From: Planctomycetota bacterium
GTDB lineage: Bacteria; Planctomycetota; UBA1135; UBA2386
Length of the DNA: 64,000 bases
Direction: 5' to 3'
Assembly: GCA_965223545.1 (NCBI GenBank)
Contig: OZ245006.1
Location: forward strand, 3,680,001-3,744,000
Shown here in pieces: positions 7,800-44,573 of the stretch. The notes under the pieces are model-generated. The model searched no databases and was not told the origin of the DNA. It was given only the letters and a program-made list of their open reading frames with translations. The number at the start of each line of letters is the position of its first letter. Position 1 is the stretch's first letter. The position numbers and the translations under genes are program-made.

Positions 7800-7935
7800 C
7801 ACCGGTTCGACGATCGGGTTGTGCAGCGTGCAGAGCTCGCCAGCGCTCCTGCCAATCGGAGAGTAGGGCGGGTCGCCACGCGTTGTCGCGCTCGGCTGGG
7901 TCGGCCCGCAGGTCGTAGAGCTCGATGCCGTCGCT
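7800..7935 (-). pseudogene. Decayed sulfatase-like C-terminal fragment
   Basis: Minus strand reads DGIELYDLRADPAERDN, a typical sulfatase tail motif; no intact ORF; limits approximate. Confidence 0.35.
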
Positions 7936-8059
7936 GCGGCGCCGGTGCTGCCGGCGTGCGCGGACAGGTCGACGCGCACGGCGATGGGCTCGGTGGTATC
8001 CGTCGGTTGCAGGAAGCGCTCGCAGCCGCGGCGGTCCGCGTGCCGGAGTTCAGCCCCGA

Positions 8060-8719
8060 ACGGCTGGAGAAGCTGAAGAAGCGATACCGCGACGGCTCGA
8101 CCCACGTAGTCCTCAGCCCGCTCGACTTCATCGCGCGCCTCGCCGCGCTGGTTCCGCGGCCGCGCGTGCACCTCGTCACCTACCACGGGGTGTTCGCGCC
8201 GGCCGCGGCATACCGCGACCTCCTCGTCCCGGACCCGCCGGAGGAGGAGCAGCCCGCGTGCGCACATCGCCCGGACCCCGACGGCAACGACGACCGTCCA
8301 CGACCACGTCGTGGACGACGGAGGTACTCGTGTGCCGAGCTCATGCAGCGGGTCTTCAAGGTGGACGTCCTGGTGTGCTTCGCAACTGCGGCGCACCGAT
8401 GCCAAGGTGCTCGACCTGCTTTCCGACCCCGCGGTCCTCGATCGCATCTTGGCAGCCATCTCGAGCTGCCCGCGGAGCCGCCGCTCATCGCGGCGGCTCG
8501 CGGCCCGCCCGAGGCGGCGCTGCCGTTCGAGTGAGAGGCTTGCGTGCCGTTGACAAGAGGTCCCCGCGCGCACGGGGTCTGCGCGCACCCCGGAGATTCG
8601 AGCGTTTCGCCTCGACGGGGACGCCTCAACCGCAGCCGCCGAGCGGTTCGGATACCATGGCAAAGTTCGCCCACCGCCTCCTGCGAAGGGCCGGAGGCAC
8701 TTTGAAACGCTTGTCCCGC
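8060..8719 (+). mobile_element. IS91-like element remnant, copy 3 (C-terminal half and ori-like end)
   Basis: LKKRYRDGSTHVVLSPLDFIARLAALVPRPRVHLVTYHGVFAP; stop at 8534; tail near-identical to 2817-3001, ending ACTTTGAAACGCTTGTCCCGC. Confidence 0.85.
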
Positions 8720-8796
8720 TCTTTGACAGTTGGGTCGAGCGGCTTCGCCTCCCCGGCGGCTCGACCTCGATGATGCGGGGAGGCGGTGAGCTCGAG

Positions 8797-11356: not shown

Positions 11357-13849
11357 TCAGAGCCCCGGACGCACCCACAGACACTGAGTCGTCGCGAAGC
11401 CACCGGCACTTGGGTCGTGCACGAATGCCTGCACGAAGACGTCATCGGCCCACGTCATCGTCGCCGGCAGTTGCAGCGTCAGCTGAAAGTTGCCACCGGC
11501 ATCTGCGTTCTGGAGCAGCGCTCCCTCGATCGACGGCATCACGACTACACCGCTGAGCGGCACGCACGCGAGGCGCTGACCGAAGACCAGCAGCACCTGC
11601 GCACCGGGCGCGGTCCCCGAGACATCGAGGGCCACGCGCCCTCCCGGCACGACCGCGCCTTGGCCGGTCAGGCTCGGCGACATCGCCGTCGCCCCGCCGT
11701 TGGCCCCGCCAAGGTCGACGAACACACCGGCCACCGCCGGCCGCGCACGCACCGAGAGATAGAGACTGCTGCCATCGGCCGCAGCCGCCTGCATCGCCGC
11801 GCCGGTCGCCGGCGCCGGGTCGAGGTAACGCAGGCCGCCGGCGGTGCGCAGCGGTCCGTCGATCGATGGGCCGACCATCGGCGTCGCCCGCAACGACGAC
11901 ACCTGCGCCACCAGCCGATAGCTCCGTCCCTGTCCGAGCAGCCAGTCCACGGGTACGCGTTGGCGGTGGTTGCGCACACCGGCAGGCAGCTGCAGCTCGG
12001 CGACGACGCGGGGCTGGGGATCGGTGACATCCCAGAGCACCGCATGCGCGGCCCCACCGGGCATGGCGAAGCCCGCGCCAGGCTGGCCATCCACCGCGAC
12101 CTCGGTAATGCGCACAGGCCCGCTCGCCGGCGTGGTGTCGAACGCCAGTCCGACGAACGCCTGCGGCGAGCCGCTCGGCTGCAACGCCGCGAGCGGCGCG
12201 CCCGGGCCCGGGACCGCCAGTCCACCACCCGCCGCGTCGGTGGCCGGTGCCTCCGCCGGCTGCGGCACGACGTCGCAGCCGCCGCGGCGGACGCGACCAC
12301 TGCGGAACACCTCGACCTCGCCACCCGCCAGGTCGGCGAAGGCGACGCGCAGGAGCGGATTGACGTTGTGATCGACCCGGTGCCGGCCCACGGTCCCGGC
12401 GAACTCGACGGCAATGTCGACGTCGTCCTCACCGAGCGCCAGGGCGAACGGCAACGCGTACTCATCCTGGTTGAGGTATCCCGCCGCGCTCGAGGTGAAC
12501 CGAAGCTGGGACACACCGGTGCTGCGCGCGCGCACGGTGACGCGGGCGCCGAACTCGTTGGCCAGCCCACCCGGCACTGCCAGCGAATCCCGCAGCGGAC
12601 GCACGCGCACCGTGCGGCGCGCCGTCGCCGGCGTCTGCCGATCGTAGGTCGTGTTCTCGTACAGTCGGCCCCGGTCGCCCCAGTTGGCGATCAGACAGTC
12701 GACGTCGCCATCGCGATCCCAGTCCGCCCAGCACGGTGCGGCCGTGGTGATGTGCGCCGCCGGAATGCTGTGCGGCGCGACGCGCAGGCTGCGCTGGCCG
12801 GTCTCGCGCCACAGGTTCTGCCGGAACACCTCGCGCGTGGTCAGGTCCAGATCGCCATCTTGATCCCAGTCCGCAACCGAGATGCCGAGCTGGATTCCGG
12901 CCGACGGAGTCTCGACGACGCCGTCCTCGCGCGCGAATGTCCCGTCGCCGCGGTTCTCCCACAGCACGATGCCGCTGGCCCAGTAGGACACGAACAGGTC
13001 GAGGTCGCCGTCGAGGTCGTAGTCGGCGAACACGGTTCCTTCGTCGAGCTCGCGGCGCTGTCCGATCCCCGAGGTCGTCTCGGCCAGCGGCACGAACCGC
13101 GGCGCGCCCGGCGCGGACGCGTTCTGGTAGAGCGTCCCGTTGGAGTAGAGGTCGAGGTCGCCGTCGCCGTCGAGGTCGACGAACTGCGCGCCCTCGGGCC
13201 GCGCCGAACCCGGCGTGTTGATCAGTCCCGCGGCCGCCGTCGCGGTCACGAAGCGGTACGCGCCGCCCGGCCCGGTCGGACCCTGATTGTGGAAGAACAC
13301 GTTGGAGCTGGACCCACCGGGCGGCGTCCCCGGCGGATAGGCCGGCACGAAGAGATCGAGGTTGCCGTCCCCATCGACGTCACCCCAGCAGATCGTCTCG
13401 GCATTCATGTCCGCGACTGCCGCGATGATCGTCCCCTGTGGGTCGGCGACCTGCCGGAACCGGCCGCCGCCGAGGTTCTGCAGCAACCGGAACTCCGCCG
13501 GCAGCGTTTGCCAGACCCGCGGCTCGATGGCCAGATCGGGCAAACCGTCGTTGTCGTAGTCGCCGGCGGAAGAGCCGTACTTGATGCCCGCACCGATCAC
13601 GCCCGAGAGGTTTGCGGTCAGCCGCCAGGAAACCCCGCCCAGGTTGCGCCAGAGCTCTCCCCCCAGCGCGTTGAACACGTCGACCCACCCGTCGCCGTCG
13701 TAGTCGACCACGGCAAGTCCTCGTGTGCTGCCGAAGTCGATTCCGGCGGGGAACTCGGCGCTGGTCCAGCGGCGCAGCGGAACGGAGACCACTTGGGCAG
13801 CGGCTCCCACTGCCAGGAGAGCGATCGCGATCGTCGGGCGGGCGAACAT
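11357..13849 (-). CDS. Secreted FG-GAP/CRTAC1-like (ASPIC-UnbV-type) beta-propeller protein with C-terminal beta-domain
   Basis: Signal peptide MFARPTIAIALLAVGAAAQ; about seven DxDxDGxxDL repeats; FGARVTV...GYLNQ segment. Confidence 0.85.
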   Translation of the reverse strand: MFARPTIAIALLAVGAAAQVVSVPLRRWTSAEFPAGIDFGSTRGLAVVDYDGDGWVDVFNALGGELWRNLGGVSWRLTANLSGVIGAGIKYGSSAGDYDNDGLPDLAIEPRVWQTLPAEFRLLQNLGGGRFRQVADPQGTIIAAVADMNAETICWGDVDGDGNLDLFVPAYPPGTPPGGSSSNVFFHNQGPTGPGGAYRFVTATAAAGLINTPGSARPEGAQFVDLDGDGDLDLYSNGTLYQNASAPGAPRFVPLAETTSGIGQRRELDEGTVFADYDLDGDLDLFVSYWASGIVLWENRGDGTFAREDGVVETPSAGIQLGISVADWDQDGDLDLTTREVFRQNLWRETGQRSLRVAPHSIPAAHITTAAPCWADWDRDGDVDCLIANWGDRGRLYENTTYDRQTPATARRTVRVRPLRDSLAVPGGLANEFGARVTVRARSTGVSQLRFTSSAAGYLNQDEYALPFALALGEDDVDIAVEFAGTVGRHRVDHNVNPLLRVAFADLAGGEVEVFRSGRVRRGGCDVVPQPAEAPATDAAGGGLAVPGPGAPLAALQPSGSPQAFVGLAFDTTPASGPVRITEVAVDGQPGAGFAMPGGAAHAVLWDVTDPQPRVVAELQLPAGVRNHRQRVPVDWLLGQGRSYRLVAQVSSLRATPMVGPSIDGPLRTAGGLRYLDPAPATGAAMQAAAADGSSLYLSVRARPAVAGVFVDLGGANGGATAMSPSLTGQGAVVPGGRVALDVSGTAPGAQVLLVFGQRLACVPLSGVVVMPSIEGALLQNADAGGNFQLTLQLPATMTWADDVFVQAFVHDPSAGGFATTQCLWVRPGL

Positions 13850-14011: not shown

Positions 14012-16180
14012 ATGACTGCGCCGGTTCGCTCGCTCCTCCTCCTGACCATCGCATTCTGGATTCCCCGGTCGGCGCCAGCTCAGCAGACCATCCACGTTCC
14101 CCCTCCACACGTCGGAGGAGACGACACCGCGGAGATCCTGAATGCGATGGGCCAGCTCACCGACGGTGACACGCTTCAGTTCAGCAGCGGGACGTACGAT
14201 GTCGCGTTATCCGGCTACCCGAACGGCATCGCCCTCACCTTCTCGAGCATCAGCGATCTGACCGTTGCGGGCGATCCCGGAGGGACGACGCTCGCCTTCC
14301 ACGGATTCGACCCCACGGTTCACGGTGACAACCTGACGCTCTGGTATGCGGGGCTCGTGTTTCAGAACTGCGACCGCGTGACGGTCGAGGACTTGGACGT
14401 TGAGGTTGTGCGTCCCCTCGCCACCGAAGGCGAGATCGTCTCCGTGCATTTCCCCGCCGCGGACCAAGCCGTCGTACACGTCCGGACCACCGACCCCCAG
14501 ATGGTCATCGCACCCGGAACATGGACGCTGCTGCAGCTCTCTCCGGTCTACAACGCCGCGCACGCAAATGCAGGGCAGCTCGTCGAACGCGCCCTCATCG
14601 GATCAGCAACAAGCGCGACTGCCAAGCTGAACGCCGCCCCTCCCGCCGGGTCGCAGCAAGACATCCTGATCAACTTCACGGGACTCGCGACCTGGGAGGT
14701 CGCGCGCTTCACCCATATGGATTCGATCAAGAGCGATCTCACCGCCGTGATCATGCATCAGAAGCGCTCCTTCCCCTGCACGGGAGGGCTATTCCAGGAC
14801 TGCGAGGACGTGACCGTGGTCCGTTCCGCCTTTCGCTCGTTCGTGAAGGGCACCTCCCTCGAACGCTGTTGAAACGCCGAGTTCGAGGACGTCACGATCG
14901 AGCCGCGCCTTCCTACGTGGAACGTCGGGTCGACGCGAGGTGGCTTCGGCGGCACCTACGGGATCGCTGGCAGCCTCGAGTACACGCGCTGTCAGGTCTC
15001 GGGTGCGTTCGATGAGGGCCTGGACGTCACCGGCCACATCTGGGCCAAGGTCAACACCTGGGAGCCGATGACCAACAAGCTACGCGTTTCTTCGTCGAAG
15101 CCCACCAAGGTCGACGCAGGCCTAGACCCTGCCAACTGGGGGGCCGGGAGCCTCGCTGCGGGCGACCAGGTTTGGGTCTACGAGCCGGATCTCGGCGAAC
15201 CCAAGGCAGTGTTCGAGATCGTCTCCGCGATCTCGACCAACCCGACTCCGCCCAAGGCTCCGTGGATCTTGACCCTCAACCCCATCATCTACGACCCGTC
15301 CAATCCCCCCTCCGACGACGATCCGGTCTCGTTGCGCGGGAACATCTACGACAGCGTCGTGGTCGAGCAGTGTCAGTTCACCGGTGGCAGGGGCGTCGGG
15401 GTCATGCTGTCCGGCCCGAACGTCGTGGTCCGCGACTGCATCTTCACGAACCTGGCGCGCTCCGCGATCCGAGTGCAGACAGTGTTCGACGTCACGCTCG
15501 ATCTGAACTCGGCGGGCCCACCACCGCACAACGTCACGATCGAGAACAACGTCGTGAACCAGTGCAACGCCTGGAGCAACAAGGACTGGCCCTGGGACTC
15601 CATGGTTCACTGGGGACAAGCGATCGGGGCCATCGACGTCTCGGTGATGTACGAGCAAAACACCAACCTCATCCGCGCCCCCCGGTCGGCGGTGCACAAC
15701 GTGCTCATCACCGGAAACGCCGTGCAAGCGACCGAACGCGCCGGCATCTGCGTGGCATCCACGACGAATGCGACCATCGAGGGCAACGTGTTCGGGCCGG
15801 CCGTCGCCTCCCACTTCTTGGGTACCCCGGCGGTCGAGAACTCGCTCGTCTACCTCGAGAACTGCCTGACTGTCTCGGTGGTTGGCAACTCAACGCGGCC
15901 AGGGCCGCAACCAAACACGGAGCGTTCCGCGACCCGAGCGTCGGTCGCGGGTCCCGCGGTCGCCGGCGGCCGCGCTGAGCCCAGAGGCCAGTGTTGTCTT
16001 CGAGCCTCCGGGAGCTGCGTTGTCGAAGTTCCAGCGGCATCGAGCCTTCCGAGAGGTTGTCGCAGCGCGAAGATTTGCGGACCCTGAGGCTCAACGGTCC
16101 CCGGGCAACCGGCGGGCGTGGTCTCGCTTCGCATCGGGCCCGATGTGACGAACGTGCACGACTCGGGAAACACCTGGTGA
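14012..16180 (+). pseudogene. Secreted right-handed beta-helix protein (GH110/pectin-lyase-like), interrupted by an in-frame TGA and a 201-bp element
   Basis: GGAG + ATG 14012, signal peptide, DDTAEI..A...GDTLQF..GTY; TGA at 14870-14872 with the same frame continuing; removing 15893-16093 gives VVGNS-TVPGQPAGVVSLRIGPDVTNVHDSGNTW*. Confidence 0.8.
15893..16093 (+). mobile_element. ~200-bp structured non-coding element, copy A (diverged)
   Basis: Starts (A)CGCGGC-N4-GCCGCAACCAAAC, contains GCCGCGCTGAGCC and GAGCCTCCG, ends GAGGCTCA; CTCAACG occurs at both junctions. Confidence 0.85.
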
Positions 16181-30917: not shown

Positions 30918-30951
30918 GTCATCGCGCGGCGCTGTTTCGGCGTGCGGGCGA

Positions 30952-30986
30952 AGTGATGGAACGGAGCCTGGCTCCGTACGATCACT
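30952..30986. repeat. REP-like palindrome, copy 1
   Basis: AGTGAT-GGAAC-GGAGCC-T-GGCTCC-GTACG-ATCACT hairpin between convergent genes. Confidence 0.7.
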
Positions 30987-31947
30987 AGAGACGGACGACG
31001 GCGGGGTTGGAGATCAGCACTGGTCCACCCGACGGATCGAGCGCGATCGCCTGGGCGATACCGAGGCCGTCCGCCGTGGTGGGGAGCGGCAGGCGGAGCG
31101 CGGCGGTGCCGCTGCCGTCGACGGAGAAGCCCAGGGCAGCGAGCAGTGGTAGGCCGACACGCAGGGTGCCGATCGAAGTGTTCAGGGGGCCGGGGCTGGC
31201 GGACAGCAGCACGTAGCCCGTCGAAGCCGGCGGCGCGTCGACGTCGAGGGAGAGGCTGGTTCCGGCGCGTTCGCCGACGCGAAGCGCGGCGTAGCGGCCA
31301 ACTCCGTGGGGGCAGGAGGATGGAGTGTAGGCGAGGTCGTCGATGACGAGCCAAGTGGCGGAGGTGTCGACGACGATGCGCGAAATGCAGCTGCCGCTCA
31401 CCGTCAGTGGCTGCATCGCCGTGCCGAGCGTGACCGAAGCGGTATCGACGACCTGTCCGCCCACCGCATAGGCGACGGCAGTGACCGGCTGTCCGATGCC
31501 GGATCCGGTGCCGACCAAGAACTGCACCGAATCCACCGCGGGTCGAAACCAGATCTCCTCGGGGGGCCTGGGGATCGCACCCGACGCGTAGCGCGCGGTG
31601 ACGTTGAACGCGAGGAAGTTGGGCGAGCTGTGGCCAGTGACGCCGAAGTTCCCCGCCTCGTCCAAGGCAGCCCCACCGTCGGTCAGGGTCGGACCCAAGA
31701 AGGTCACGCCCAGACTCTGGTAGAAGTTCTGCAACGGCAGCGCCGAGGCGAACACCGGCGGCTGCACGTGGTCGTCGAAGTCGATGAACCCGGCTCCGCG
31801 CAACTGTGTGGTGTAGTGCGCGGGTCGCCATTCACTGTTCGGCGTGGCGGCCGCGCCGTTCGCCACTCCACCGGCGATCGCGGGCTGCTGGGCACCGAGG
31901 CAAGGAGCGACGGAAAGGACGAGGGCCATCGTGCTGAGTCGTTGCAT
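30985..31947 (-). CDS. Secreted protein, tandem paralog 1 (320 aa) with C-terminal beta-domain
   Basis: AGGAG RBS, signal MQRLSTMALVLSVAPCLGAQ, FIDFDD...LGVTF...IDDL beta-sandwich pattern. Confidence 0.85.
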   Translation of the reverse strand: MQRLSTMALVLSVAPCLGAQQPAIAGGVANGAAATPNSEWRPAHYTTQLRGAGFIDFDDHVQPPVFASALPLQNFYQSLGVTFLGPTLTDGGAALDEAGNFGVTGHSSPNFLAFNVTARYASGAIPRPPEEIWFRPAVDSVQFLVGTGSGIGQPVTAVAYAVGGQVVDTASVTLGTAMQPLTVSGSCISRIVVDTSATWLVIDDLAYTPSSCPHGVGRYAALRVGERAGTSLSLDVDAPPASTGYVLLSASPGPLNTSIGTLRVGLPLLAALGFSVDGSGTAALRLPLPTTADGLGIAQAIALDPSGGPVLISNPAVVRL

Positions 31948-32012
31948 CAGTTCTCCTAGGGGTTGAGCGAGCGGCGGTGATGCGCACACACCGCGGACGA
32001 AGCGAGAAAATC

Positions 32013-32036
32013 GAGTCAGACTCCGTACTTCCGTTA
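32013..32036. repeat. REP-like palindrome, variant copy 2
   Basis: GAGTC-A-GACTC-CGTAC-N5-TTA; same spacing to the stop codon as copies 1 and 3. Confidence 0.55.
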
Positions 32037-32996
32037 GAGCCGGACGACGGCAGGGTTTGAGATCAGCACTGGTCCACCCGACGGATCGAGCGCGATCGCC
32101 TGGGCGATACCGAGGCCGTCCGCCGTGGTGGGGAGCGGCAGGCGGAGCGCGGCGGTGCCGCTGCCGTCGACCGAGAAGCCCAGGGCAGCGAGCAGGGGTA
32201 GGCCGACACGCAGGGTGCCGATCGAAGTGTTCAGGGGGCCGGGGCTGGCGGACAGCAGCACGTAGCCCGTCGAAGCCGGCGGCGCGTCGACGTCGAGGGA
32301 GAGGCTGGTTCCGGCGCGTTCGCCGACGCGAAGCGCGGCGTAGCGGCCGACTCCGTGGGGGCAGGAGGATGGAGTGTAGGCGAGGTCGTCGATGACGAGC
32401 CAAGTGGCGGAGGTGTCGACGACGATGCGCGAAATGCAGCTGCCGCTGACCGTCAGTGGCTGCATCGCCGTGCCGAGCGTGACCGAAGCGGTATCGACGA
32501 CCTGTCCGCCCACCGCATAGGCGACGGCAGTGACCGGCTGTCCGATGCCGGATCCGGTGCCGACCAAGAACTGCACCGAATCCACCGCGGGTCGAAACCA
32601 GATCTCCTCGGGGGGCCGGGGGATCGCCCCGGACGAGAGATTGGCGGTGATGTTGAAGGCGAAGAAGTTGGGCGGGCTGTAGCCCGACACACCGAAGCCC
32701 CCCGCTTCGTTGAGCACCGCGCCACCTTCAGCCAAGGTGGGCCCCAAGAAGGTCACGCCGAGGTTCTGATAGAAGTTCTGCAGCGGTCGGGTCAGGAGAA
32801 ACAACGACGGCTGCGAGTGATCGTCGAAATCGATGAACCCAGTTCCACGCGCCTGCGACGCGTGATGCGTGGGTCGCCACTCACTGTTCGGCGCGGCGGC
32901 CGCGCCGTTCGCCACTCCACCGGCGACCGCTGGCTGCTGCGCCCCGAGGCAAGGAGTGAGGGAAAGGACGAGCGCCATCGTGCTGAGTCGTTGCAT
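32034..32996 (-). CDS. Secreted protein, tandem paralog 2 (320 aa)
   Basis: Same length as paralog 1 at an offset of 1049 nt; protein identical from GAIPRPPEE to the end. Confidence 0.85.
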   Translation of the reverse strand: MQRLSTMALVLSLTPCLGAQQPAVAGGVANGAAAAPNSEWRPTHHASQARGTGFIDFDDHSQPSLFLLTRPLQNFYQNLGVTFLGPTLAEGGAVLNEAGGFGVSGYSPPNFFAFNITANLSSGAIPRPPEEIWFRPAVDSVQFLVGTGSGIGQPVTAVAYAVGGQVVDTASVTLGTAMQPLTVSGSCISRIVVDTSATWLVIDDLAYTPSSCPHGVGRYAALRVGERAGTSLSLDVDAPPASTGYVLLSASPGPLNTSIGTLRVGLPLLAALGFSVDGSGTAALRLPLPTTADGLGIAQAIALDPSGGPVLISNPAVVRL

Positions 32997-33094
32997 CAGT
33001 TCTCCTGGAGGTTGCGCTGAAGCAGCCGCGATGCGAACACACCGCCGCCGCTGGGGTCGAGTCGATTGTGGCACAAGCGGGCGAGCGCTGCTCT

Positions 33095-37434: not shown

Positions 37435-38936
37435 ACACACTCCTCCATCCCGCGCGGCTCGCACTCGCCGCGCTCGCGGCCGCGGCCCCGGCGCCAGGCC
37501 AGTCCCCCACACCCGATCCGCTGCTCGGATCCTGGCAGGGCACGCTCTCGGTGGCCAACACCGAGCTCGAAGTCGCCATGCACATCACGGTGGAAGGCGA
37601 TGGCTACGCGGCGACGTTCGATTCGATCACGCAGGGAGCCGAGGGGATCCCGGTGACCACGCTGACCGTTGACGGGACCCACCTGGTCGCCGAGCTCCGC
37701 TCGATCGGTGGGCGCTACGAAGCGGAACTCGAACAAGACGGCGACGACCGGCAACTGGTCGGGCAGTGGAGCCAGGGCGGCGCGACGTTCGACCTGGACC
37801 TGGTGGCCGTCGCCGAAGTGGTCAAGCCGGTGCGCAACCGCCCGCAGACACCGCAGCCGCCGTTTCCGTACCGCGTCGAGGAGGTCGTCTTCAGCCACCG
37901 ACCCGCAGAGAGCCTCGACGACGGCTTCGCGCCACGGGCCTCCGACGCCGAAGACGCCATCAACCTGGCCGGCACTCTGACTCTGCCCGAGGGCGAAGGA
38001 CCGTTTCCCGCCGCGGTCATGATCACCGGCTCCGGCCGCCAGGACCGGGACGAGACGGTGTTCGAGCACAAGCCGTTTTGGGTGATCGCCGATCACCTCA
38101 CGCGCGAAGGCCTCGCAGTGCTGCGCTGTGACGACCGCGGTGCCGGCCAATCCACCGGCGACTTCGCCGCCGCGAACAGCGCCGACTTCGCTACTGACGC
38201 GCGCGCCGCAGTGCGCTGGCTGCGGACGCGCACCGACATCGATCCGCAACGCATCGGGTTGATCGGCCACAGCGAAGGTGGCGTGATCGCCCCGATGGTC
38301 GCCGCCGGCGACGACAAGGACTGGATTCACTTCAGCGTGTTGCTGGCGCCGCCGGCAGTCAACATTGCCGATGTCATCCGCCATCAGTCCGCGCTGATCG
38401 CGAAGGCAGAGGGGGCGGACAGCGCCGACGTCGAGGCCAACGACCGTTTGCTCGCCGCAGTGTTCGGTGCGCTCACCGACCCCGATGCGGCGGAGGCCCG
38501 CGACGCGGTGATCGATCGCGCGATCAACGAGGCGTGGGACACGCTCAGCGAGGCTGCCAAAGCCGAGGTCGGCGGCAACCGCGGACAGCTCCAACAACAG
38601 ATCGCGCGAATGGATCGGCCGTGGATGCGCTATCTGCTGCAGTACGACCCGCTGCCGGCGCTGCGCGAGATGCGCGGGCACGTGCTGGCGGTTCTCGGCG
38701 GCAAGGACTTGCAGGTCGACCCGGAGCAGAATCTCGAACCCTTGCGGAGCGCGCTCTTGACCCGCGACGCCGGCGACCACGACACGACGATCCGCGTGCT
38801 CGACAACCACAACCACTTGCTCCAGCGCTGCGAGACGGGCTCGCCCACGGAGTACATCGACATCGAAGAGACCGTCTCTCCCGAGGCGCTAGCTCTGCTG
38901 GCCGATTGGCTGCGCCGACACGTGTTGCAGCCCTGA
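37431..38936 (+). CDS. Secreted alpha/beta hydrolase (serine aminopeptidase-like)
   Basis: ITGSGRQDRDE, DDRG.G.STG, GHSEG, GGKDLQV, NHLLQ; ATGA overlap with tetR. Confidence 0.9.
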   Translation: MNTLLHPARLALAALAAAAPAPGQSPTPDPLLGSWQGTLSVANTELEVAMHITVEGDGYAATFDSITQGAEGIPVTTLTVDGTHLVAELRSIGGRYEAELEQDGDDRQLVGQWSQGGATFDLDLVAVAEVVKPVRNRPQTPQPPFPYRVEEVVFSHRPAESLDDGFAPRASDAEDAINLAGTLTLPEGEGPFPAAVMITGSGRQDRDETVFEHKPFWVIADHLTREGLAVLRCDDRGAGQSTGDFAAANSADFATDARAAVRWLRTRTDIDPQRIGLIGHSEGGVIAPMVAAGDDKDWIHFSVLLAPPAVNIADVIRHQSALIAKAEGADSADVEANDRLLAAVFGALTDPDAAEARDAVIDRAINEAWDTLSEAAKAEVGGNRGQLQQQIARMDRPWMRYLLQYDPLPALREMRGHVLAVLGGKDLQVDPEQNLEPLRSALLTRDAGDHDTTIRVLDNHNHLLQRCETGSPTEYIDIEETVSPEALALLADWLRRHVLQP

Positions 38937-38961
38937 TCGAAGCCCGTCTCGGGGCCCGGAA

Positions 38962-39156
38962 GCGCGGCCGAGGCCGCAACCAAACTCGGATGCCGCTTTT
39001 CCCGGAGCGCTTTGGAAGGTCCGACCCATCCGCCGCCGCGCTGAGCCAGGAGGCACTGTCTCTCCGAGCCTCCGACGCGGCGGCGACGTTGCCATGTCAG
39101 CGGCGTCGCCTCGAAAATGTTGTCGAAGCTCGAAGATTCGAGGCGCCGGAGGCTCA
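38962..39156 (+). mobile_element. ~200-bp structured non-coding element, copy B
   Basis: 195 nt, closely similar to 42495-42690; its last TCA is the stop codon of the minus-strand gene. Confidence 0.9.
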
Positions 39157-39972
39157 CCGGCCCCCGCGCGGGGTCGCACGCCGCGGCGCGGTCGCACGAT
39201 CCAGTGCATCACTGCGGATGTCGTCGTCGGTGCCGTCGTCACCGTCGGGGCCGAAAGAGCGGACCACCGCCTTGGCCGGAACGTTCGGGTCCTCGCCAAT
39301 GACGTACTCGTTGCCCCACGGGTCGCGCAGTGGTTCGGTCGCATCGAAGTAGCAGTGCCCGCGCTCATCCGGCGTGATCAGCCACTGCCAGAGCGGGATC
39401 TCACGCCGGTTGTTGAGCTGGAACAAGCGCACCGCGTTGAGCACGTCGCGGATCTCGCGGCGCGCCCGTCCGACCTCCGCGCTCATGGGTGGAGCTGGCC
39501 TTGCACTACCGTCATCGGCGACGGGGGTGACCGGGAGCTCGAGCGCGTGGTCGCCGAACGCGACGCGCAGCAGACCGTGTCCCGCATCGGCCCCCGAGGT
39601 CAACGTGCACTCCAGCCATGGCGCGTGCTCGGGCGATGCCTCGAACTCGAGGTCCCAGGACTCGTCGTTGCCCACGTCGCGGCAGAGCAGCAGCCACGTT
39701 TCGCCGCGGCGAAGCATGAGGAGGCGGTAGCCCCCCGCCTCCAGAGTCCGACCCGCCACGCGGACCGAGCCGCGGACATCCAGCGCGGCGAGCCGAGTTG
39801 CGGCCGCACTGGCGGTCCACGGCCGCGCAAGGTAGTCCAGATTCAACGCGGAGCCGCCCGCGAAGCGGATCGACTGACGGAGGAGCGGCGCGGCGTCCAG
39901 CTGTTGGGCCAAGCCTTGCTGGCTGGTGAGTTGCCAGAGCAGGACGGCAACTACGAGATGAATGCGATTCAT
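39154..39972 (-). CDS. Secreted protein: DUF2911-like N-terminus plus GspG-type (T2SS pseudopilin C-terminal) domain
   Basis: AGGAG RBS, signal peptide, LDY..RP...VAGRTLEAGGY.L; DPWGNEY...VRSFGPDGDDGTDDDI. Confidence 0.7.
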   Translation of the reverse strand: MNRIHLVVAVLLWQLTSQQGLAQQLDAAPLLRQSIRFAGGSALNLDYLARPWTASAAATRLAALDVRGSVRVAGRTLEAGGYRLLMLRRGETWLLLCRDVGNDESWDLEFEASPEHAPWLECTLTSGADAGHGLLRVAFGDHALELPVTPVADDGSARPAPPMSAEVGRARREIRDVLNAVRLFQLNNRREIPLWQWLITPDERGHCYFDATEPLRDPWGNEYVIGEDPNVPAKAVVRSFGPDGDDGTDDDIRSDALDRATAPRRATPRGGR

Positions 39973-40211
39973 GATGGACTCCTGCCGGTGCCGAGACCGA
40001 ACACCGACGCCGACTCTACCGGCGCACCGCGGGTGTCTTCAGCCGCTTTCGATGTGGTGATCGACCGAGTGGTGGTCTGCTCGAAGGGCTCCGATTTGCG
40101 GATTCTTGACGAATCGGGAGCGTCCTTCCCGCTGTTGGATCCATAGGTCTCCGGTCGGGTGACTGCGTGAGGCCGACCGTGTTCCAACCGCAATCCGACT
40201 CAAGAGGCAAC

Positions 40212-41114
40212 ATGCACGACTCCACATACCGCCCTCTCGCTATCGCCTGTTTGTCAGCGATGGCTCTTGGCCTCGCCGCGACGCTCGACGCACAAACACC
40301 GCCAGGCGCGTGTACGCAGGAGAGCACCGCGTTTGCCACCGCCGAGGGTGGTTGCAAGGATCTCGGCTCCGGATTGGTCTGGAGCGCCAGCACCTACAAC
40401 GCCGCAGGGCGCATCCACACGTGGCCAGAAGCCGACTCCTATTGCGCAAACCTGGTCGAGGGCGGATTCGACGATTGGCGGCTGCCGACGATCGACGAGC
40501 ACCTCGAGTCGCTTACGAACGGCATCAAGAGCCACGTCGCCTGGGCGCCCTACGACCGCCCCTGGGCTGCCAAGACCCAGGGGAACTGGGCGTTCTACGT
40601 CGATTGGGGCACGGAGGAGGCCGTGCGGACTCTACAGCGCAGCACGTTCGTCCACTTCTGCGTCCGCGGAGCCTCGGGCGGGGGCAAAGGCGGGGGGAAG
40701 GGCGGCGGAAAGCCCAAGTCCACACAACGGCTGCAGGCCGGCACGTGGTCCTTCGACGTCGCCGCCCCGGAACATGCCGGCCGCGAGTTCTTGCTGCTGG
40801 TAGGGCTGCCGACGCAATCCCCGAACACCGCCGCCGCGCCGCCGATTGGCCAAATGCCCATCGCGCAGGGGAATGTGGTCCGGCGCCTCGACGGCGCCGG
40901 CCGCGCGCGCATCGATCTCGGCCTGGCGGGTCTGCCGGCAGACCGCGCGCCGGAGCAGACGTGGGTGGGGTTGGTGGTTCTTGCTCCCGACCTTCCCGGG
41001 GGCGTCGCCGAAGTCTTGACTCTGGCCCGACCCCGCGACGGGCGGGCGGAGAGTTCGGACGGGGAACGCAGCCAACTCGAAGCCGATCGGAGCCAATCGA
41101 TCCAGAGTCGTTGA
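40212..41114 (+). CDS. Secreted DUF1566 (Lcl-type) domain protein
   Basis: Signal peptide; D..SGLVW, TWPEADSYCANL..GGFDDWRLPTIDE, ..CVRG; GGGK linker. Confidence 0.8.
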   Translation: MHDSTYRPLAIACLSAMALGLAATLDAQTPPGACTQESTAFATAEGGCKDLGSGLVWSASTYNAAGRIHTWPEADSYCANLVEGGFDDWRLPTIDEHLESLTNGIKSHVAWAPYDRPWAAKTQGNWAFYVDWGTEEAVRTLQRSTFVHFCVRGASGGGKGGGKGGGKPKSTQRLQAGTWSFDVAAPEHAGREFLLLVGLPTQSPNTAAAPPIGQMPIAQGNVVRRLDGAGRARIDLGLAGLPADRAPEQTWVGLVVLAPDLPGGVAEVLTLARPRDGRAESSDGERSQLEADRSQSIQSR

Positions 41115-41216
41115 CCCTGCAGCGGACCACCGCGTGAGATCCTCGCGCCGCGCGCCGAGTGTCCACTTGCACGCGCCTTGCACGCCCCGGGGTCCACCGA
41201 TAGCATCGGCGGAGAG

Positions 41217-41672
41217 GTGTCAGGTGGATTCTCAAGCCAGCGTGAGACGCAGGCCCAAGCGCTGCGTGAACGCGAGCGCGTCGCCCGACGCCGCATGCTG
41301 CTCACTGCGGCCGGGACCCTGGTGGCCGGCAGCGGCTTGGGCTTCCTCGGCGGCCGCTCTTGGGCCCCGGCGGCACCAGACGTTCAGCGCAAGCGAGTCA
41401 CGACCCCGACTGCGCTCGCCGGTCTCGCGGTCGGGCCCCTAGCCGAACTCTTGCGCGCCTCGCCGACGTATCTGAGTCTGCTCGTGCAGCACGAGCAGGT
41501 CGCGGACGCGGAGTGGTTCGGTGTCGCCCGACTCACGACCGCCGCTCTCGAAGACCACCCCGACGCCCCGGCCTCGCTGGCGCGCGGCCTACTGCGCTTC
41601 GCGCGGGCACGCGACGGAATCCCGGGCCCCATTCGCCAAGGCCTCGACCTCTTGGCCCAGCGCACGCGATGA
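41217..41672 (+). CDS. Hypothetical protein with twin-arginine-like segment and TM
   Basis: TTGCAC-N17-TAGCAT (41178-41206) upstream; ARRRMLLTAAGTLVAGSGLGFLGG. Confidence 0.6.
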   Translation: MSGGFSSQRETQAQALRERERVARRRMLLTAAGTLVAGSGLGFLGGRSWAPAAPDVQRKRVTTPTALAGLAVGPLAELLRASPTYLSLLVQHEQVADAEWFGVARLTTAALEDHPDAPASLARGLLRFARARDGIPGPIRQGLDLLAQRTR

Positions 41673-41929
41673 GCAGCACACTGCAGTCTTCGCTGTCGGC
41701 CGAACCGGATCCAGCGGTCCAGGGCGAAGATCTGTGTGTGACCTATACGGGCAACGACTCACTCTACTACTCGGTGGACGACGGCCCCTTCCAGGAGCTG
41801 CCGCTCGACGGCGACGGCAACGGCACGATCCAGGTGCCGGCGGGCGCCGAGTCCATCGTGCTCTCCAACTTGAAGCTCCCGGACCCCACCAACCTCGACG
41901 TCGAGGTCATCAGCACCCGCGGTCCGTGA
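41669..41929 (+). CDS. Small acidic beta-rich hypothetical protein
   Basis: ATGA overlap with the previous gene; MSSTLQSSLSAEPDPAVQG..., codon usage fits the window. Confidence 0.65.
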   Translation: MSSTLQSSLSAEPDPAVQGEDLCVTYTGNDSLYYSVDDGPFQELPLDGDGNGTIQVPAGAESIVLSNLKLPDPTNLDVEVISTRGP

Positions 41930-41956
41930 GCACCGGGTGAAAGGACCGACCACGCC

Positions 41957-43232
41957 ATGCCACGCTGCCTCGTTCCCGTCTTGCTGCTCTTGCCCGCGCT
42001 CGCGTCGGGGCAGTCGGTGGTGGTACCCGCGGCCTACGCCAACGCAGAGGCGCGCTCGCTCGGTGAAGTTCCGGGCTTCACCGGCCGCTTCCGCATGCAG
42101 GTCGTGGTCGATGGATCGACGCTTTCGAGCCTGGCGGGGCGAAGCCTGGACGGCATCTGGTTGCGCCGCGACCGCCAGTTCGACCGCGCCTACCCGGCTT
42201 CTTGGGCACAGCTGCGCGTCGGCGTGTCCCACGCGCGCACGACACCCTCGACCGCGTCGCCCGCGTTCATCGCAAACCATGCAGCAGTGCCCAGTATCGT
42301 CTTCGACGGCAACTTGACGCTGCCCAGCTCGCTGCCGACGCCGCCACCCTATCCCTGGCAGAGTCCGTTCGCGGTGCGCATCCCCTTCACACCGACGTTC
42401 GCTTACGCGGGCGGCCCGCTGTGCCTGGAGTTCGAGGGCGAGGTCGGCGCCCCGCAAGGAACCTTGTGGCCTGTCGACTTCTTCCAAGAGCTCAGCGCGG
42501 CCACGGCCGCAACCAAACTCGGATGCCGCTTGTTGGCGGAACAGCTCGGAAGGCCTGACACATCCGCCGCCGCGCTGAGCCAGGAGGCACTGTCTCTCCG
42601 AGCCTCCGGCGCGGCCGCGTCGCTGCCAGGGCAGCGGCGTCGCCTCGAAAGTGTTGTCGAAGCTCGAAGATTCGAGGCGCCGGAGGCTCATTGGCAGCAC
42701 GGTGCAGAAAGTCGGCGTGCCGTGTGGTGACACCACCTCCCGCATCGGTGTGACCGCGAACACGCGCGCACGAAACCTCGCGCCGGGGAGCTCGCTTCTG
42801 GTCTCCACGTTCGGCGAACCCGGGACTTCGGGGTTGTTGGCGCTCGGCTCGACGGCGACTCAAGTGCCTCTAGCCGCATTCGGGGCGCCGGGCTGCACGC
42901 TGTACCTACAGCCCGTCGCGACGCTGCCGTTCGCCTTCCCGCTCACTGGCACCCTCGACGCCGAACACACGATCGCGCTGGCGTTGCCTGGCAGCACGGG
43001 CCTACTCAATGCGGTCTTCTTCGCACAGGCGATCAACCTCGAGACACCCGGCCGCAGCAATCCCGCCGGCCTCACGACGACGAACGCGCTGCGGCTGCAA
43101 GTGGGGTCGGTGCCGCCACCCGCCACAATGACCGTCGTCGCCACACGAGCCGTCGCCGCTGGTGCGCCTTGGCCGGCGACTGGCGACGTGTTCGTTTCCC
43201 GTGGCCCGGTGCTGCGCTTCGACGCGCGTTGA
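41957..43232 (+). pseudogene. Secreted protein (359 aa when restored) split by a 196-bp element
   Basis: Signal MPRCLVPVLLLLPALASGQ; deleting 42495-42690 gives in-frame VDFFQEL-IGSTVQKVGVPCG and leads into the recurrent C-terminal domain. Confidence 0.9.
42495..42690 (+). mobile_element. ~200-bp structured non-coding element, copy C
   Basis: GCTCA at 42490-42494 and 42686-42690; stem GAGCCTCCGGCGC (42600-42612) / GCGCCGGAGGCTC (42677-42689). Confidence 0.92.
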
Positions 43233-43248
43233 CCGGTAACGCGATCGG

Positions 43249-43283
43249 GTGATGAACAGGAGCCTGGCTCCGTACTATCGCTA
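43249..43283. repeat. REP-like palindrome, copy 3
   Basis: GTGATGAACA-GGAGCC-T-GGCTCC-GTAC-TATCG-CTA between convergent genes. Confidence 0.7.
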
Positions 43284-44573
43284 GTCGTATTGCTCGAGGA
43301 AGCGCGCAAGGAGGTGGAAGTCGCTGCTTGGCTCGATCAAGCGCACGCGGGCGCGCAAAGTGTCTTGATCGATCAGCTGATCGAACGGGACGTAGCAGAG
43401 TTCGAGCTGGCCTCGCGTCGACACCATGACGCGATCCAGGCCTTGCTCGGCGAGGGCCCGGTAGGCGCCGACGCCGAGCTGGGAACCGAGGACAACATCG
43501 AAGGCGTGCGGTCGGGCGCAGCGCGCCTCGTAGCCGAGCTGCACGCCGCGCACCTTGCGCTTCTTGCCGGTGCGCGCAGCGTACGCGGCGGTCACGCGGC
43601 GCTCGAACAGCTGCGCGGTGTTGAGTGAGCCGATGCGGATGTGGCCGTGGTCGTCGCGCGGCACGTCGCGCAACGCCTCGTCGGGCAGCATGCCGGCCAG
43701 CCCCTCGGCGATGACTACGACTCCGAAGGGCTTGCCCTCACGGTCACGCGCCACCATCTTGTCGACGATGCGCTCGACCACTCGGTCGATCACCATGACG
43801 GCGTGCTCGCGTGGCTCGCCGTGCTCGTCGGTGACGGTCTCGGTGCCGCGCAGCTCGCCGACGATGTCTTCCACGCCGATCACCAAGCTGGCCTCGCCGG
43901 CAATGGCGGCGCCGTACGCCAGCCAACCGGCGCTGCGCCCCATCGTCTCGGCGATGAAGTAGGCCCGCGTCGCCTCGGCGTCGTAGAGGAGATTGCGCAG
44001 CTCGGTGGCGAGCGTCTCGACGGCGGTGAAGTAGCCGAACGTGAAGTCGATGCCGTTGTAGTCGTTGTCGATCGTCTTGGGCACGTGGACCACGCGCACC
44101 CGCGGCTTCTCCTTCGGCAACCGCGTCTGATACGCCGCGAACAGACTCGCCGTCTTCAGCGTGTCGTCCCCGCCGATCGACACCAGCGCCTCCACTTGCA
44201 GCGAGCGCAGCGCTTCATACACGATGCGCAGGGGTTGGCAGCGCTCGGCGTCATCGAGATCCTCGGCGCAACGGATCGCCTTGCCCGGGTTGGCGCGGGC
44301 CGTGCCGAGCAGGATGCCTTGCCGGCTGCGCGAACGACGCAGCGTCGCGTGACCGAGCAAGAGATAGTCGTCGCCTTCGGCGAGCGGTCGCTGTGGACCG
44401 TACTCGAGCAATCGCGCATAGCCATGGCGGCAGCCGATCACGCCGATGCCGTTGCGAAGGAACGACACGGCAGCTGCGGAGATCACGGCGTTGGCAGCCG
44501 GCGCGGGCCCGCCGCTGAAGAGGATCGCGACGCGGGTGAAGAGCGTGGTGGGGTGCGGGGGACGGTCGACCAA
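43281..44573 (-). CDS. Phosphofructokinase, PfkA family, probably PPi-dependent
   Basis: SGGPAPAAN, LGTAR, GGDDT and PKTIDND (the Asp/Lys pair typical of PPi use), ETMGR, LGYEAR; start uncertain. Confidence 0.9.
   Translation of the reverse strand: MVDRPPHPTTLFTRVAILFSGGPAPAANAVISAAAVSFLRNGIGVIGCRHGYARLLEYGPQRPLAEGDDYLLLGHATLRRSRSRQGILLGTARANPGKAIRCAEDLDDAERCQPLRIVYEALRSLQVEALVSIGGDDTLKTASLFAAYQTRLPKEKPRVRVVHVPKTIDNDYNGIDFTFGYFTAVETLATELRNLLYDAEATRAYFIAETMGRSAGWLAYGAAIAGEASLVIGVEDIVGELRGTETVTDEHGEPREHAVMVIDRVVERIVDKMVARDREGKPFGVVVIAEGLAGMLPDEALRDVPRDDHGHIRIGSLNTAQLFERRVTAAYAARTGKKRKVRGVQLGYEARCARPHAFDVVLGSQLGVGAYRALAEQGLDRVMVSTRGQLELCYVPFDQLIDQDTLRARVRLIEPSSDFHLLARFLEQYD

What the first reader, a model, noticed from the sequence alone, without database searches (positions are those of the whole stretch)
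42569..42581. The element carries an internal 13-mer complementary to its own end-to-end junction
Seen in sequence: GCCGCGCTGAGCC is invariant in all copies (15969-15981, 39035-39047, 42569-42581). Its reverse complement, GGCTCA|GCGCGGC, is exactly the right end joined to the left end for B and C (one mismatch for A). It also pairs over 12 nt with the integrated left junction of C (host GCTCA + GCGCGGC). A second segment, GAGCCTCCG, pairs with the right end. The integrated single strand can therefore fold into two adjacent arms, each presenting a CTCA boundary. Inference: a built-in guide that selects the target and aligns both cut sites, comparable to IS200/IS605 guide sequences, an intron internal guide or a bridge RNA, and predicting a circular ssDNA or RNA intermediate.
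Basis: partly seen in the sequence, partly recalled or inferred. Interest (0 to 1): 0.85.

Follow-up and report, generated by a model that had tools for sequence, protein, structure and literature searches.

The report
Self-guided miniature transposon targeting CTCA
A roughly 195-base mobile DNA element without genes, present in well over a hundred copies in this bacterial genome, always lands right after the four letters CTCA and carries internal stretches that pair with its own two ends, which looks like a built-in guide for cutting and pasting.

Summary
GCCGCGCTGAGCC is exact at 15969, 39035 and 42569, inside three copies of a gene-less repeat: A 15893-16093, B 38962-39156, C 42495-42690. 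The genome holds 229 matches, 126 of them full-length copies analysed. Of 72 left flanks not preceded by another copy, 94-99% read CTCA. Copies end in CTCA, make no duplication and form head-to-tail arrays.

The 13-mer is the best-conserved internal block. Its 5' half pairs with the left end, and a second segment (GAGCCTCC...) pairs with the right end. Both helices show compensatory changes in relatives from other genera and metagenomes: 5 pairs changed on both sides, covariation score 0.144 against 0.041 in shuffles, 0 of 500 reaching it. TGAG faces the invariant CTCA, so guide-target covariation cannot be tested. Pairing of the 13-mer's last bases with the right end shows no covariation.

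Best reading: a non-autonomous single-strand-type transposon that works like IS200/IS605 guide elements, moved in trans by an unidentified enzyme. No circle, RNA or transposase was shown. There is no replication-strand bias. 33 of 76 right ends supply the TGA stop of a convergent gene. Copy C splits a real gene.

The parts
42495..42690 (+). Copy C of the element (196 nt), inserted in sense inside a coding gene
   Evidence: nhmmer and covariance-model matches. Removing 196 nt restores the frame. The two gene halves align collinearly to a 365-aa paralogue, residues 9-183 and 185-365.
38962..39156 (+). Copy B (195 nt). Its last three bases TCA are the stop codon (TGA) of the minus-strand ORF 39154-39972.
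   Evidence: The ORF carries a T2SSG domain at 26.4 bits, cut-off 21.
15893..16093 (+). Copy A (201-nt subfamily; left end starts ACGCGG)
42569..42581 (+). 13-mer 'guide 1' of copy C. GCCGCGC pairs with the left end 42495-42501. TGAG pairs with the flank CTCA 42491-42494.
   Evidence: Helix covariation.
39035..39047 (+). 13-mer of copy B
15969..15981 (+). 13-mer of copy A
42600..42612 (+). 'Guide 2' of copy C (GAGCCTCCGGCGC). It pairs with the right end 42677-42689, or alternatively with the nearby GGAGGC to form a small central hairpin.
42491..42494 (+). Target tetranucleotide CTCA on the left flank of copy C
   Evidence: flank statistics
42685..42690 (+). Right end GGCTCA of copy C, which recreates the target CTCA
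41957..42494 (+). 5' half of the interrupted secreted-protein gene
42691..43232 (+). 3' half of the interrupted gene, in frame once the element is removed

Best explanation
SHOWN. The 13-mer belongs to a family of gene-less mobile elements of 188-213 nt. They insert immediately 3' of CTCA, make no target duplication, have no terminal inverted repeats and themselves end in CTCA. Each insertion therefore recreates the target. This explains the head-to-tail arrays, and why an insertion on the complement of a TGA-G stop codon leaves that gene's stop intact.

Taken as a single strand, the element folds into two arms. Arm 1 is closed by the left end (GCGCGGC) pairing with the 5' half of the 13-mer. 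The next four bases, TGAG, extend this helix onto the flanking CTCA, so the left cut site lies inside a continuous helix. Arm 2 is closed by a second internal segment (GAGCCTCC...) pairing with the right end up to ...CTC, so the right cut site lies at the foot of that helix.

INFERRED. These two segments act like the guide sequences of IS200/IS605 elements. They present both cleavage sites to a single-strand-specific enzyme supplied in trans, most plausibly an HUH/Y1 transposase. TGAG selects CTCA in the target. After excision the same 13-mer can splint the joined ends. The enzyme, the single-stranded or circular intermediate, and the choice of DNA rather than RNA are not shown.
For: Mobility and target:
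- 229 nhmmer matches, 126 full copies analysed.
- Among 72 left flanks not preceded by another copy, positions -4 to -1 are C 94%, T 96%, C 99%, A 97%. The background frequency of CTCA is 0.0018 per position.
- Right flanks are variable, so there is no duplication.
- Of 121 loci, 90 are solo, 20 double, 9 triple, 1 quadruple and 1 six-fold; the six-unit array has period 195.
- Mixed-subfamily arrays point to repeated insertion next to resident copies.
- Truncated and deleted derivatives that end in a CTCA-like site exist.

Structure:
- Ends, 13-mer and GAGCCTC are the most conserved columns.
- Unconstrained RNAalifold on 36 copies predicts left end:13-mer and segment 2:right end.
- The DNA fold of copy C gives the same structure, z -3.89.
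- Left end:13-mer is fully paired in 102 of 126 copies. Segment 2:right end (7 bp) is fully paired in 100 of 126.

Covariation:
- In another genus (G009, 5 copies) and in G017 (1 copy) the left end starts with T and the guide has A where G000 has G and C.
- On 13 sequences from 5 sources, 91.7% of cells are paired against 84.6% shuffled and 38-43% slid. Five pairs changed on both sides (5 of 500 shuffles reach this). The covariation score is 0.144 against 0.041 (0 of 500).
- One G009 copy has arm C>T with right end G>A.
- A tandem trio has left-end G3>T with guide C>G, a T.G wobble.
- Within G000 the four linked sites occur as C-G-C-G in 84 copies and as the fully switched G-C-G-C in 13.

Target side and candidates:
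- Flanks weakly resemble the end-to-end junction: G at -5 in 47%, G-C-G-C at +1 to +4 in 42-57%.
- 33 of 76 right ends give the TGA of a long, high-GC3 convergent ORF, against 2 and 2 in the other two frames. Copy B is an example in the window.
- The genome has 14 Pfam Y1_Tnp matches, including a 12-copy 232-aa gene with HUH and Y motifs.
- Literature: IS608 reads its cleavage sites by base pairing with guide sequences (abstract of PMC3201880). Engineered extension of that pairing to 12/17 nt works in vitro (abstract and section 15 of PMC5934647).
Against: - No enzyme is tied to the element. The 12-copy Y1 element has no significant similarity to it and no comparable internal complement of its own junction (-12.9 kcal/mol, weaker than the shuffled mean of -14.5).
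- Y1 homologues occur in 25 of 61 family genomes, while the element was found in 2 clearly and 1 weakly.
- There is no orientation bias relative to replication: 41+/45- on one replichore and 38+/31- on the other. IS608 and ISDra2 target the lagging-strand template (abstract of PMC6006769).
- The two ends do not carry a pair of similar subterminal hairpins, judged by eye.
- TGAG:CTCA never varies, so the guide-target claim rests on complementarity alone. Guide position 13 does not predict flank -6: G 14/44 with guide C, C 7/20 with guide G.
- Several propagated variants break pairs: GCCACGC guide in 6 copies, left-end first base A/T/C in 9 copies with an unchanged guide, and chimeric haplotypes in 22 copies.
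- G.T and A.C mismatches are about equally common (10 against 15 in the left helix). The bottom strand folds as well, z -4.62. Neither the active strand nor single-strandedness is demonstrated.
- On 36 mostly G000 copies only one pair covaries.
Confidence: 0.5

Rival explanations
1. IS110-type, RNA-guided recombination. The element would be a passenger made of ends plus a bridge-RNA-like gene, moved by one of the genome's many IS110-family recombinases through a double-stranded circle. The 13-mer and the second segment would be the donor guides.
For: - The genome has 38 DEDD_Tnp_IS110 matches of three types.
- IS110 elements make no duplication, join right end to left end, and encode a 150-250-nt RNA whose guides each include the core (passages of PMC11208160).
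- Here both internal segments include the complement of CTC(A).
- Two IS110 types are physically linked to the element.
Against: - In bridge RNAs the left guide pairs with the bottom strand and the right guide with the top strand, and they sit on the two sides of one internal loop. Here both segments are complementary to the same strand.
- The target is 4 nt with only weak flanks, not a programmable site read by two guides of 8-9 and 4-7 nt.
- No internal segment covaries with the flanks.
- The linked IS110 copies sit inside the element, at GCCGCAAC^CAAAC and at ..TTCGAG^CCTCC... That is what is expected if the element is their target, not their cargo.
Confidence: 0.1
2. RNA-level element: a structured RNA that cuts or joins itself, or is spliced (intron-like), or spreads through an RNA copy. 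In that case the pairing of the ends would serve RNA processing or circularisation.
For: - The fold brings the 5' and 3' ends together on one splint.
- Head-to-tail arrays are what rolling-circle copying of a circle would give.
- Copy C lies in sense inside an otherwise intact-looking gene, and precise removal restores the frame.
Against: - No Rfam family reached threshold on the window, on copy C or on a six-unit array.
- The size and the ends (GCGCGG...CTCA) do not fit the group I or II intron boundary rules as I recall them.
- A hand check against the hammerhead core, as I recall it, failed.
- About 43% of right ends abut a convergent gene, so read-through would give the antisense strand.
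- Flank calls show elements mostly outside genes, with few same-strand contexts: 3 same/same against 51 non-coding/opposite of 155 loci.
Confidence: 0.1
3. The complementary blocks are ordinary stems of a host-tolerated or host-useful structured repeat (REP-like 3'-end structure, terminator or mRNA stabiliser), or inverted copies of one protein-binding site. They would have no guide role; mobility would use only the extreme ends.
For: - Both strands fold equally well.
- There is no wobble bias.
- Many copies sit directly after stop codons, where REP-type repeats are said to act (abstract of PMC3733652).
- Propagated copies tolerate mismatches in the helices.
- One derivative (C1:6278103) keeps the ends but has lost the 13-mer.
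Against: - The helices involve the very first and last bases of the element and extend onto the flanking CTCA. Selection for a generic stem would not require this.
- The same two long-range helices are kept while the interior of both arms is replaced between subfamilies and genera.
- The T.G change in the trio does not fit identical inverted protein sites.
Confidence: 0.15
4. Rolling-circle (IS91/Helitron-like, Y2 HUH) transposition. This model also gives a target tetranucleotide repeated at one end, no duplication and tandem multimers.
For: - The same tetranucleotide at the target and at the right end, and tandem arrays.
- Y2_Tnp matches exist in the genome, three of four in or beside this window.
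Against: - The Y2 matches are partial (model 54-177, 135-177, 1-74, 1-29) and few.
- Their repeat ends differently and is not associated with the element.
- The features of IS91 ends used for this comparison are recalled, not taken from a call.
Confidence: 0.05

Closest known systems
IS200/IS605-family elements (IS608, ISDra2) and their gene-less derivatives (PATE-type elements)
   Same: No terminal inverted repeats and no target duplication. Insertion 3' of a fixed tetranucleotide. Cleavage sites complementary to short internal sequences, with TGAG lying 1-2 nt 5' of a hairpin foot. Strand-specific left and right ends. Mobilisation in trans is plausible.
   Different: - The guide is embedded in a 7-bp long-range helix with the extreme left end, giving 11-13 bp across the left or circle junction instead of 4.
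- The right end is held by a separate 7-13-bp helix.
- There is no pair of matching subterminal hairpins.
- Target and right-end tetranucleotides are identical, hence the arrays.
- There is no replication-strand bias.
- No TnpA with matching ends and no TnpB were found.
Engineered IS608 with extended transposon-target base pairing (PMC5934647)
   Same: Long (12/17-nt) base pairing between internal transposon DNA and the DNA at the insertion point.
   Different: That system is man-made and pairs with the target on both sides. Here most of the extra pairing is with the element's own left end, and the natural target stays 4 nt.
IS110-family bridge RNA (IS621)
   Same: Element-encoded segments complementary to the joined right-left ends, each covering the core. 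The size is about 150-250 nt. No duplication.
   Different: Both segments here read the same strand. They are not the two sides of one loop. There is no target-binding loop, the target is 4 nt, and the element carries no recombinase gene.
REP/REPIN repeats with RAYT (TnpA-REP)
   Same: High-copy, gene-less, mostly just after genes. The genome's Y1 proteins are nearest to the REP-associated tyrosine transposase model (35.7 and 63.5 bits, both under the cut-off of 80).
   Different: REPs are 20-40-bp palindromes (abstract of PMC3733652). This element is 195 nt, asymmetric, with precise CTCA junctions. A separate REP-like palindrome exists in this genome.

Membership tests
IS200/IS605 (as a non-autonomous member) | No terminal inverted repeats and no target-site duplication | tested here: met
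   The flanks of 126 copies are variable on the right, and the two ends are unlike each other.
IS200/IS605 (as a non-autonomous member) | Insertion 3' of a specific tetra- or pentanucleotide | tested here: met
   CTCA in 94-99% per position of 72 independent left flanks; background 0.0018 per position.
IS200/IS605 (as a non-autonomous member) | Guide sequences 5' of a hairpin foot that pair with the cleavage sites | tested here: inconclusive
   TGAG lies 1-2 nt 5' of the central hairpin and is complementary to CTCA. Both are invariant, so there is no covariation test, and positions -5/-6 show no guide-dependent preference.
IS200/IS605 (as a non-autonomous member) | Similar subterminal imperfect palindromes at both ends, bound by TnpA | tested here: inconclusive
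   A short hairpin sits at bases 3-16, and different hairpins lie near the right end. No matching pair was seen by eye, and binding cannot be tested.
IS200/IS605 (as a non-autonomous member) | A Y1 HUH transposase that recognises these ends | tested here: inconclusive
   Y1 genes are present (14 matches, one 12-copy gene), but they lack shared ends or sequence with the element and are not specific to element-bearing genomes.
IS200/IS605 (as a non-autonomous member) | Orientation bias tied to the lagging-strand template | tested here: not met
   41+/45- and 38+/31- on the two replichores defined by GC skew.
IS200/IS605 (as a non-autonomous member) | Single-stranded circular intermediate | not testable with these tools
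   Only assembled contigs of public runs were available. They break at the repeat and cannot tell a circle from an array.
IS110 / bridge-RNA system | Two-sided loops: left guide pairs the bottom strand, right guide the top strand, for both donor and target | tested here: not met
   Both internal segments are complementary to the top strand of the junction. No flank-covarying loop exists.
IS110 / bridge-RNA system | DEDD recombinase encoded by the element | tested here: not met
   The element has no gene. IS110 genes lie in separate insertion sequences, two of which insert into the element.
Self-cleaving ribozymes, group I and II introns | Match to a curated RNA family model | tested here: not met
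   No Rfam match at gathering score in the window. Nothing relevant at E<=10 on copy C or at E<=1 on a six-unit array.
REP/REPIN with RAYT | 20-40-bp palindromic unit, often in inverted pairs, flanking a single RAYT gene | tested here: not met
   The unit is 195 nt, asymmetric and tandem head-to-tail. No 13-mer lies near one of the two RAYT-like genes and no full or partial copy lies near either.

The most novel reading that the evidence does not exclude
This may be a new kind of guide-bearing mobile element, not an IS200/IS605 derivative. One continuous internal guide would hold the left junction (and, after excision, the joined ends), and a second would hold the right end. The nucleic acid itself would then define both cut sites and the 4-nt target for an enzyme that has no sequence specificity of its own, or the element would move through an RNA or self-processing intermediate. 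In that case the pair left end/13-mer would be freely reprogrammable, as the G:C to T:A switch between genera hints.
Probability: 0.25. Interest if true: 0.85.

Novelty: new variant of a known kind. Interest (0 to 1): 0.62.

Why it matters
If the two internal segments really present the cut sites, this is a natural case of long (11-13 bp) nucleic-acid-guided end recognition in a very small transposon. So far that extent of pairing has only been engineered into IS608. It would give a compact, easily reprogrammed substrate for studying or using single-strand transposition.

It also shows a simple way for a mobile element to be harmless: by ending in the complement of TGA it can sit on stop codons without changing the protein.

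The element matters for the genome's ecology as well. It is the landing pad of two different IS110-family insertion sequences, and it has split at least one gene.

Tried and rejected
- Rfam on the whole window, on copy C at E<=10 and on a six-unit array at E<=1: nothing relevant.
- TnpB (PF07282): no match in the genome.
- IS91-type Y2 transposase: only four partial matches, unrelated to the element.
- The 12-copy Y1 element as parent: no similarity beyond chance-level GC-rich 7-10-mers and no junction-complementary guide. A right-end:left-subterminal complement of -20.4 kcal/mol was seen and not pursued.
- A search for an autonomous version, pairing left-end-only and right-end-only partial matches: the pairs checked hold IS110 insertions of 1.97 kb and 1.475 kb, or are internal deletions. 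One pair about 420 nt apart (C1:4291983-4292639) and one 4.1-kb interval (C1:7063520-7067883) were not inspected.
- Exact 23-mer scan of genome contigs: one record, the G009-like MAG.
- Degenerate 29-mer scan of metagenome contigs: two records.
- BLAST of the element over 41 relatives: matches in G009 and G010 besides G000. The G010 match did not look like the element.
- Covariance-model search over 61 family genomes: G000, G009, one weak match in G017 (element-like) and one weak match in G075 (not element-like by eye).
- Public runs: no RNA holder was listed.
- Contigs of four runs laid on 38500-43500 break inside the copies. No contig joins 42494 to 42691. The listed joints are repeat artefacts. 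No statement on circles, empty sites or expression can be made.
- Wobble counts to find the active strand: uninformative.
- Earlier notes of this scan: nothing found by place or by sequence.
- Literature: three full-text searches were answered and a fourth was rejected for the format of one term. In the listings I read (12-15 of 34-120 papers per search), none describes a CTCA-targeting element with an internal junction complement. This is not proof that none is in print.
Full report
**1. What is there**

The 13-mer GCCGCGCTGAGCC is exact at 15969, 39035 and 42569 on the + strand. Its only one-mismatch relative in the window is the minus-strand reading of the left junction of copy C, at 42489-42501. 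The three sites lie in three copies of one repeat. I place its limits at A 15893-16093 (201 nt), B 38962-39156 (195 nt) and C 42495-42690 (196 nt).

The window is C1:3680001-3744000 of an 8.1-Mb genome with 70% G+C. A same-family MAG that carries the element is labelled Planctomycetota in its public record. An iterated nhmmer search gives 229 matches. I analysed 126 full-length copies, defined as model positions 3 or lower to 192 or higher. At least three subfamilies differ in the interior of the element and in the bases before the final GCTCA.

**2. It is a mobile element with a four-base target**

- In 72 copies whose left neighbour is not another copy, the four bases before the element are C 94%, T 96%, C 99% and A 97%. 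CTCA occurs at 0.0018 per position in the genome.
- Nearly all copies end in ...GCTCA: each of the last four bases is the majority base in 122-124 of 126 copies. Right flanks are unrelated to left flanks, so nothing is duplicated.
- Because the right end repeats the target, copies pile up head to tail. Of 121 loci, 90 are solo, 20 double, 9 triple, one quadruple and one six-fold. The six-fold array has period 195.
- Arrays mix subfamilies, which argues for repeated insertion rather than only local duplication.
- Deleted and 3'-truncated derivatives exist, and some end at an internal CTCA-like site.

**3. Where copies survive**

Flank coding calls for 155 loci are very lopsided. In 51 loci the left flank is non-coding and the right flank codes on the opposite strand; the three mirror classes hold 5-8 loci each.

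The reason is that the last three bases, TCA, read TGA on the other strand. In 33 of 76 right ends, a long ORF (80 codons or more, GC3 of 0.8 or more) on the opposite strand stops exactly at that TGA. The two other frames give 2 and 2. An insertion behind the complement of a TGA-G stop therefore replaces the stop with an identical one.

Copy B shows this in the window. The minus-strand ORF 39154-39972, which has a T2SSG domain, uses B's TCA as its stop.

Copy C is the exception, because it lies in sense inside a gene. The upstream part aligns to residues 9-183 of a 365-aa paralogue and the downstream part to residues 185-365. Removing 196 nt restores the frame. As it stands, translation would run into the element and stop at 42728-42730.

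**4. The internal complementarity**

In the 126-copy alignment the best-conserved columns are the first 8 bases, the 13-mer, CGAGCCTC, GTTGTCG and the last 8 bases. 81 of 126 copies have the exact 13-mer and 107 have the exact core CCGCGCTGAGC.

- Unconstrained consensus folding of 36 copies pairs bases 1-6 with the 5' half of the 13-mer, and pairs the segment GAGCCTC with the right end.
- Copy C with 10 nt of left and 6 nt of right flank, folded as DNA, gives a 12-bp helix between GCTCA+GCGCGGC and the 13-mer. A helix of more than 13 bp joins GAGCCTCCGGCGC... with ...GCGCCGGAGGCTC. z is -3.89, and 0 of 200 shuffles fold as well.
- The opposite strand folds equally well, z -4.62.

**5. Is the pairing selected?**

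Inside G000 most pairs never vary. On 36 copies only pair 1:85 changes on both sides, and those three rows are the G009 copies.

Across taxa the picture is clearer.
- G009, a different genus, has five copies of 188-189 nt (one cut by a contig end) with a rebuilt interior. Their left end is TCGCGG and their guide is CCGCGA-TGAGCC, the exact complement of their own junction.
- G017 has T with A as well.
- One G009 copy changes the second segment from C to T and the right end from G to A.
- Two metagenome relatives and G009 differ from G000 in the outer part of the second helix by G:C to C:G swaps.

On 13 sequences from five sources:

| Measure | Observed | Control |
|---|---|---|
| Cells paired | 91.7% | 84.6% shuffled; 38-43% when partners are slid |
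| Pairs changed on both sides | 5 | shuffled mean 2.5; 5 of 500 shuffles reach 5 |
| Covariation score | 0.144 | 0.041 shuffled; 0 of 500 reach it |

These sequences are related and few, so the shuffle counts are not probabilities.

Within G000, four linked sites were compared: 13-mer base 13, the two sides of the small central hairpin, and right end -6. They occur as C-G-C-G in 84 copies, as the fully switched G-C-G-C in 13, and as chimeras in 22. A tandem trio has left-end G3>T with guide C>G, a T.G wobble.

Evidence against strict pairing:
- Six copies carry GCCACGC.
- Nine copies have A, T or C as first base with an unchanged guide.
- Chimeric copies have spread.
- G.T and A.C mismatches are about equally frequent.
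- The helix between the 3' half of the 13-mer and the right end shows no covariation, and five of its cells are unpaired where one side varies.

My reading is as follows. The left end pairs with the 13-mer and the right end pairs with the second segment. The complementarity of the 13-mer to the joined ends follows from the right end repeating the target; it is not separately supported.

**6. Target guiding**

TGAG in the guide is complementary to CTCA, but neither ever varies, so the key prediction cannot be tested here. Beyond CTCA there are only weak preferences that resemble the junction: G at -5 in 47%, G at -8/-9 in 51-56%, and G, C, G, C at +1 to +4 in 42-57%. These may partly reflect decayed neighbouring copies or the codons of the adjacent gene. 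A copy's own guide base 13 does not predict flank -6.

**7. Which machinery?**

- The element has no gene, and no longer version with the same ends was found.
- Of the split copies, those I inspected hold IS110-family insertions.
- There is no TnpB.
- Y2/IS91 matches are four fragments unrelated to the element.
- The genome has 14 Y1_Tnp matches. Two are single RAYT-like genes. One is a 12-copy 232-aa gene with HUH and Y motifs, nearest to the REP-associated tyrosine transposase model but below its cut-off.
- That gene is preceded by short repeated modules that end in YTCA. This is suggestive, but its boundaries are unclear.
- The 12-copy Y1 element shares no sequence with the 195-nt element and lacks a junction guide. 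Its homologues are in 25 of 61 family genomes, whereas the element was clear only in G000 and G009, and weak in G017.
- Element orientation shows no link to replication direction: 41/45 and 38/31, with the GC-skew minimum near 4.0 Mb.

The anatomy (4-nt target, no duplication, asymmetric ends, guide next to a hairpin) fits the way IS200/IS605 elements work (abstracts of PMC3201880 and PMC6006769). Membership is not established, and one tested feature, strand bias, is not met.

The bridge-RNA comparison fails. Bridge RNA guides read opposite strands from the two sides of a loop and specify long targets (passages of PMC11208160). No ribozyme or intron model matches.

**8. Direct evidence for intermediates**

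None. The public runs found are kept as contigs, which break inside the copies. No RNA run was listed.

**9. Verdict**

Shown:
- mobility;
- the CTCA target;
- the two long-range helices, with compensatory changes across taxa.

Inferred or open:
- the guide function of TGAG;
- a single-stranded or circular intermediate;
- the enzyme.

I file the element as a new variant of the guide-bearing single-strand transposon kind. A quarter chance remains that it is something more distinct.

Noticed in passing
G000:C1, e.g. 6422176-6424150, 6847508-6849480, 8011740-8013718 (not in the window): A 1.97-kb IS110-family insertion sequence (11 near-identical copies, 515-aa open frame) sits inside the element at GCCGCAAC^CAAAC in 9 of 11 cases. 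The other two sites share GCCGCAAC on the left flank. Two uninterrupted element copies carry an extra GGTAT at that very point (C1:537464, 611325), possibly a footprint.
   Followed up: partly
G000:C1:614436-615911, 6849573-6851048 (not in the window): A second IS110-family insertion sequence of about 1475 bp (392-aa open frame; 3-4 copies) is inserted in the element's central hairpin..GTCTTCGAG^CCTCCGGG... The small element is thus the landing site of two different IS110 types.
   Followed up: partly
window 30953-30988 and 43249-43284: A REP-like palindrome (GTGATG..GGAGCCTGGCTCCGTAC..) is found here. A third IS110 type (23 identical copies) often lies beside copies of it, and where the flanks can be read it appears to have landed at GGAGCC^TGGCTCC. 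Two such IS copies flank the single RAYT-like gene at C1:3914343-3915530.
   Followed up: partly
G000:C1, 12 loci, e.g. 6129588-6130283, 7214121-7214816: A 12-copy 232-aa Y1/HUH gene (94-97% identical copies). It has a conserved leader built of short repeated modules ending in YTCA, and conservation stops exactly at its stop codon. A separate repeat of about 0.9 kb is often upstream. Homologues are multi-copy in many genomes of the family (up to 32 matches).
   Followed up: partly
window 2205-2891 and 7686-8720 (also 369-668): Fragments of an IS91-type (Y2_Tnp) transposase gene, with a shared 300-nt repeat (D1). A handful of partial matches occur at six other places in the genome.
   Followed up: partly
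window about 30944-33000: Several repeat families (D2, D7, D9, D11) share a spacing of 1049 nt, which suggests a tandem duplication of about 1 kb of coding sequence.
   Followed up: no
window 12698-13184: Direct repeats of 30-36 nt at 147-153-nt spacing (D6, D12), probably a repeated protein module.
   Followed up: no
window 41957-43232 and paralogues, e.g. G000:C1:6823050-6824144: The gene split by copy C belongs to a family of secreted proteins of about 365-450 aa with no Pfam match. Several paralogues are in this genome and homologues are in 22 of the other 30 relatives searched.
   Followed up: partly
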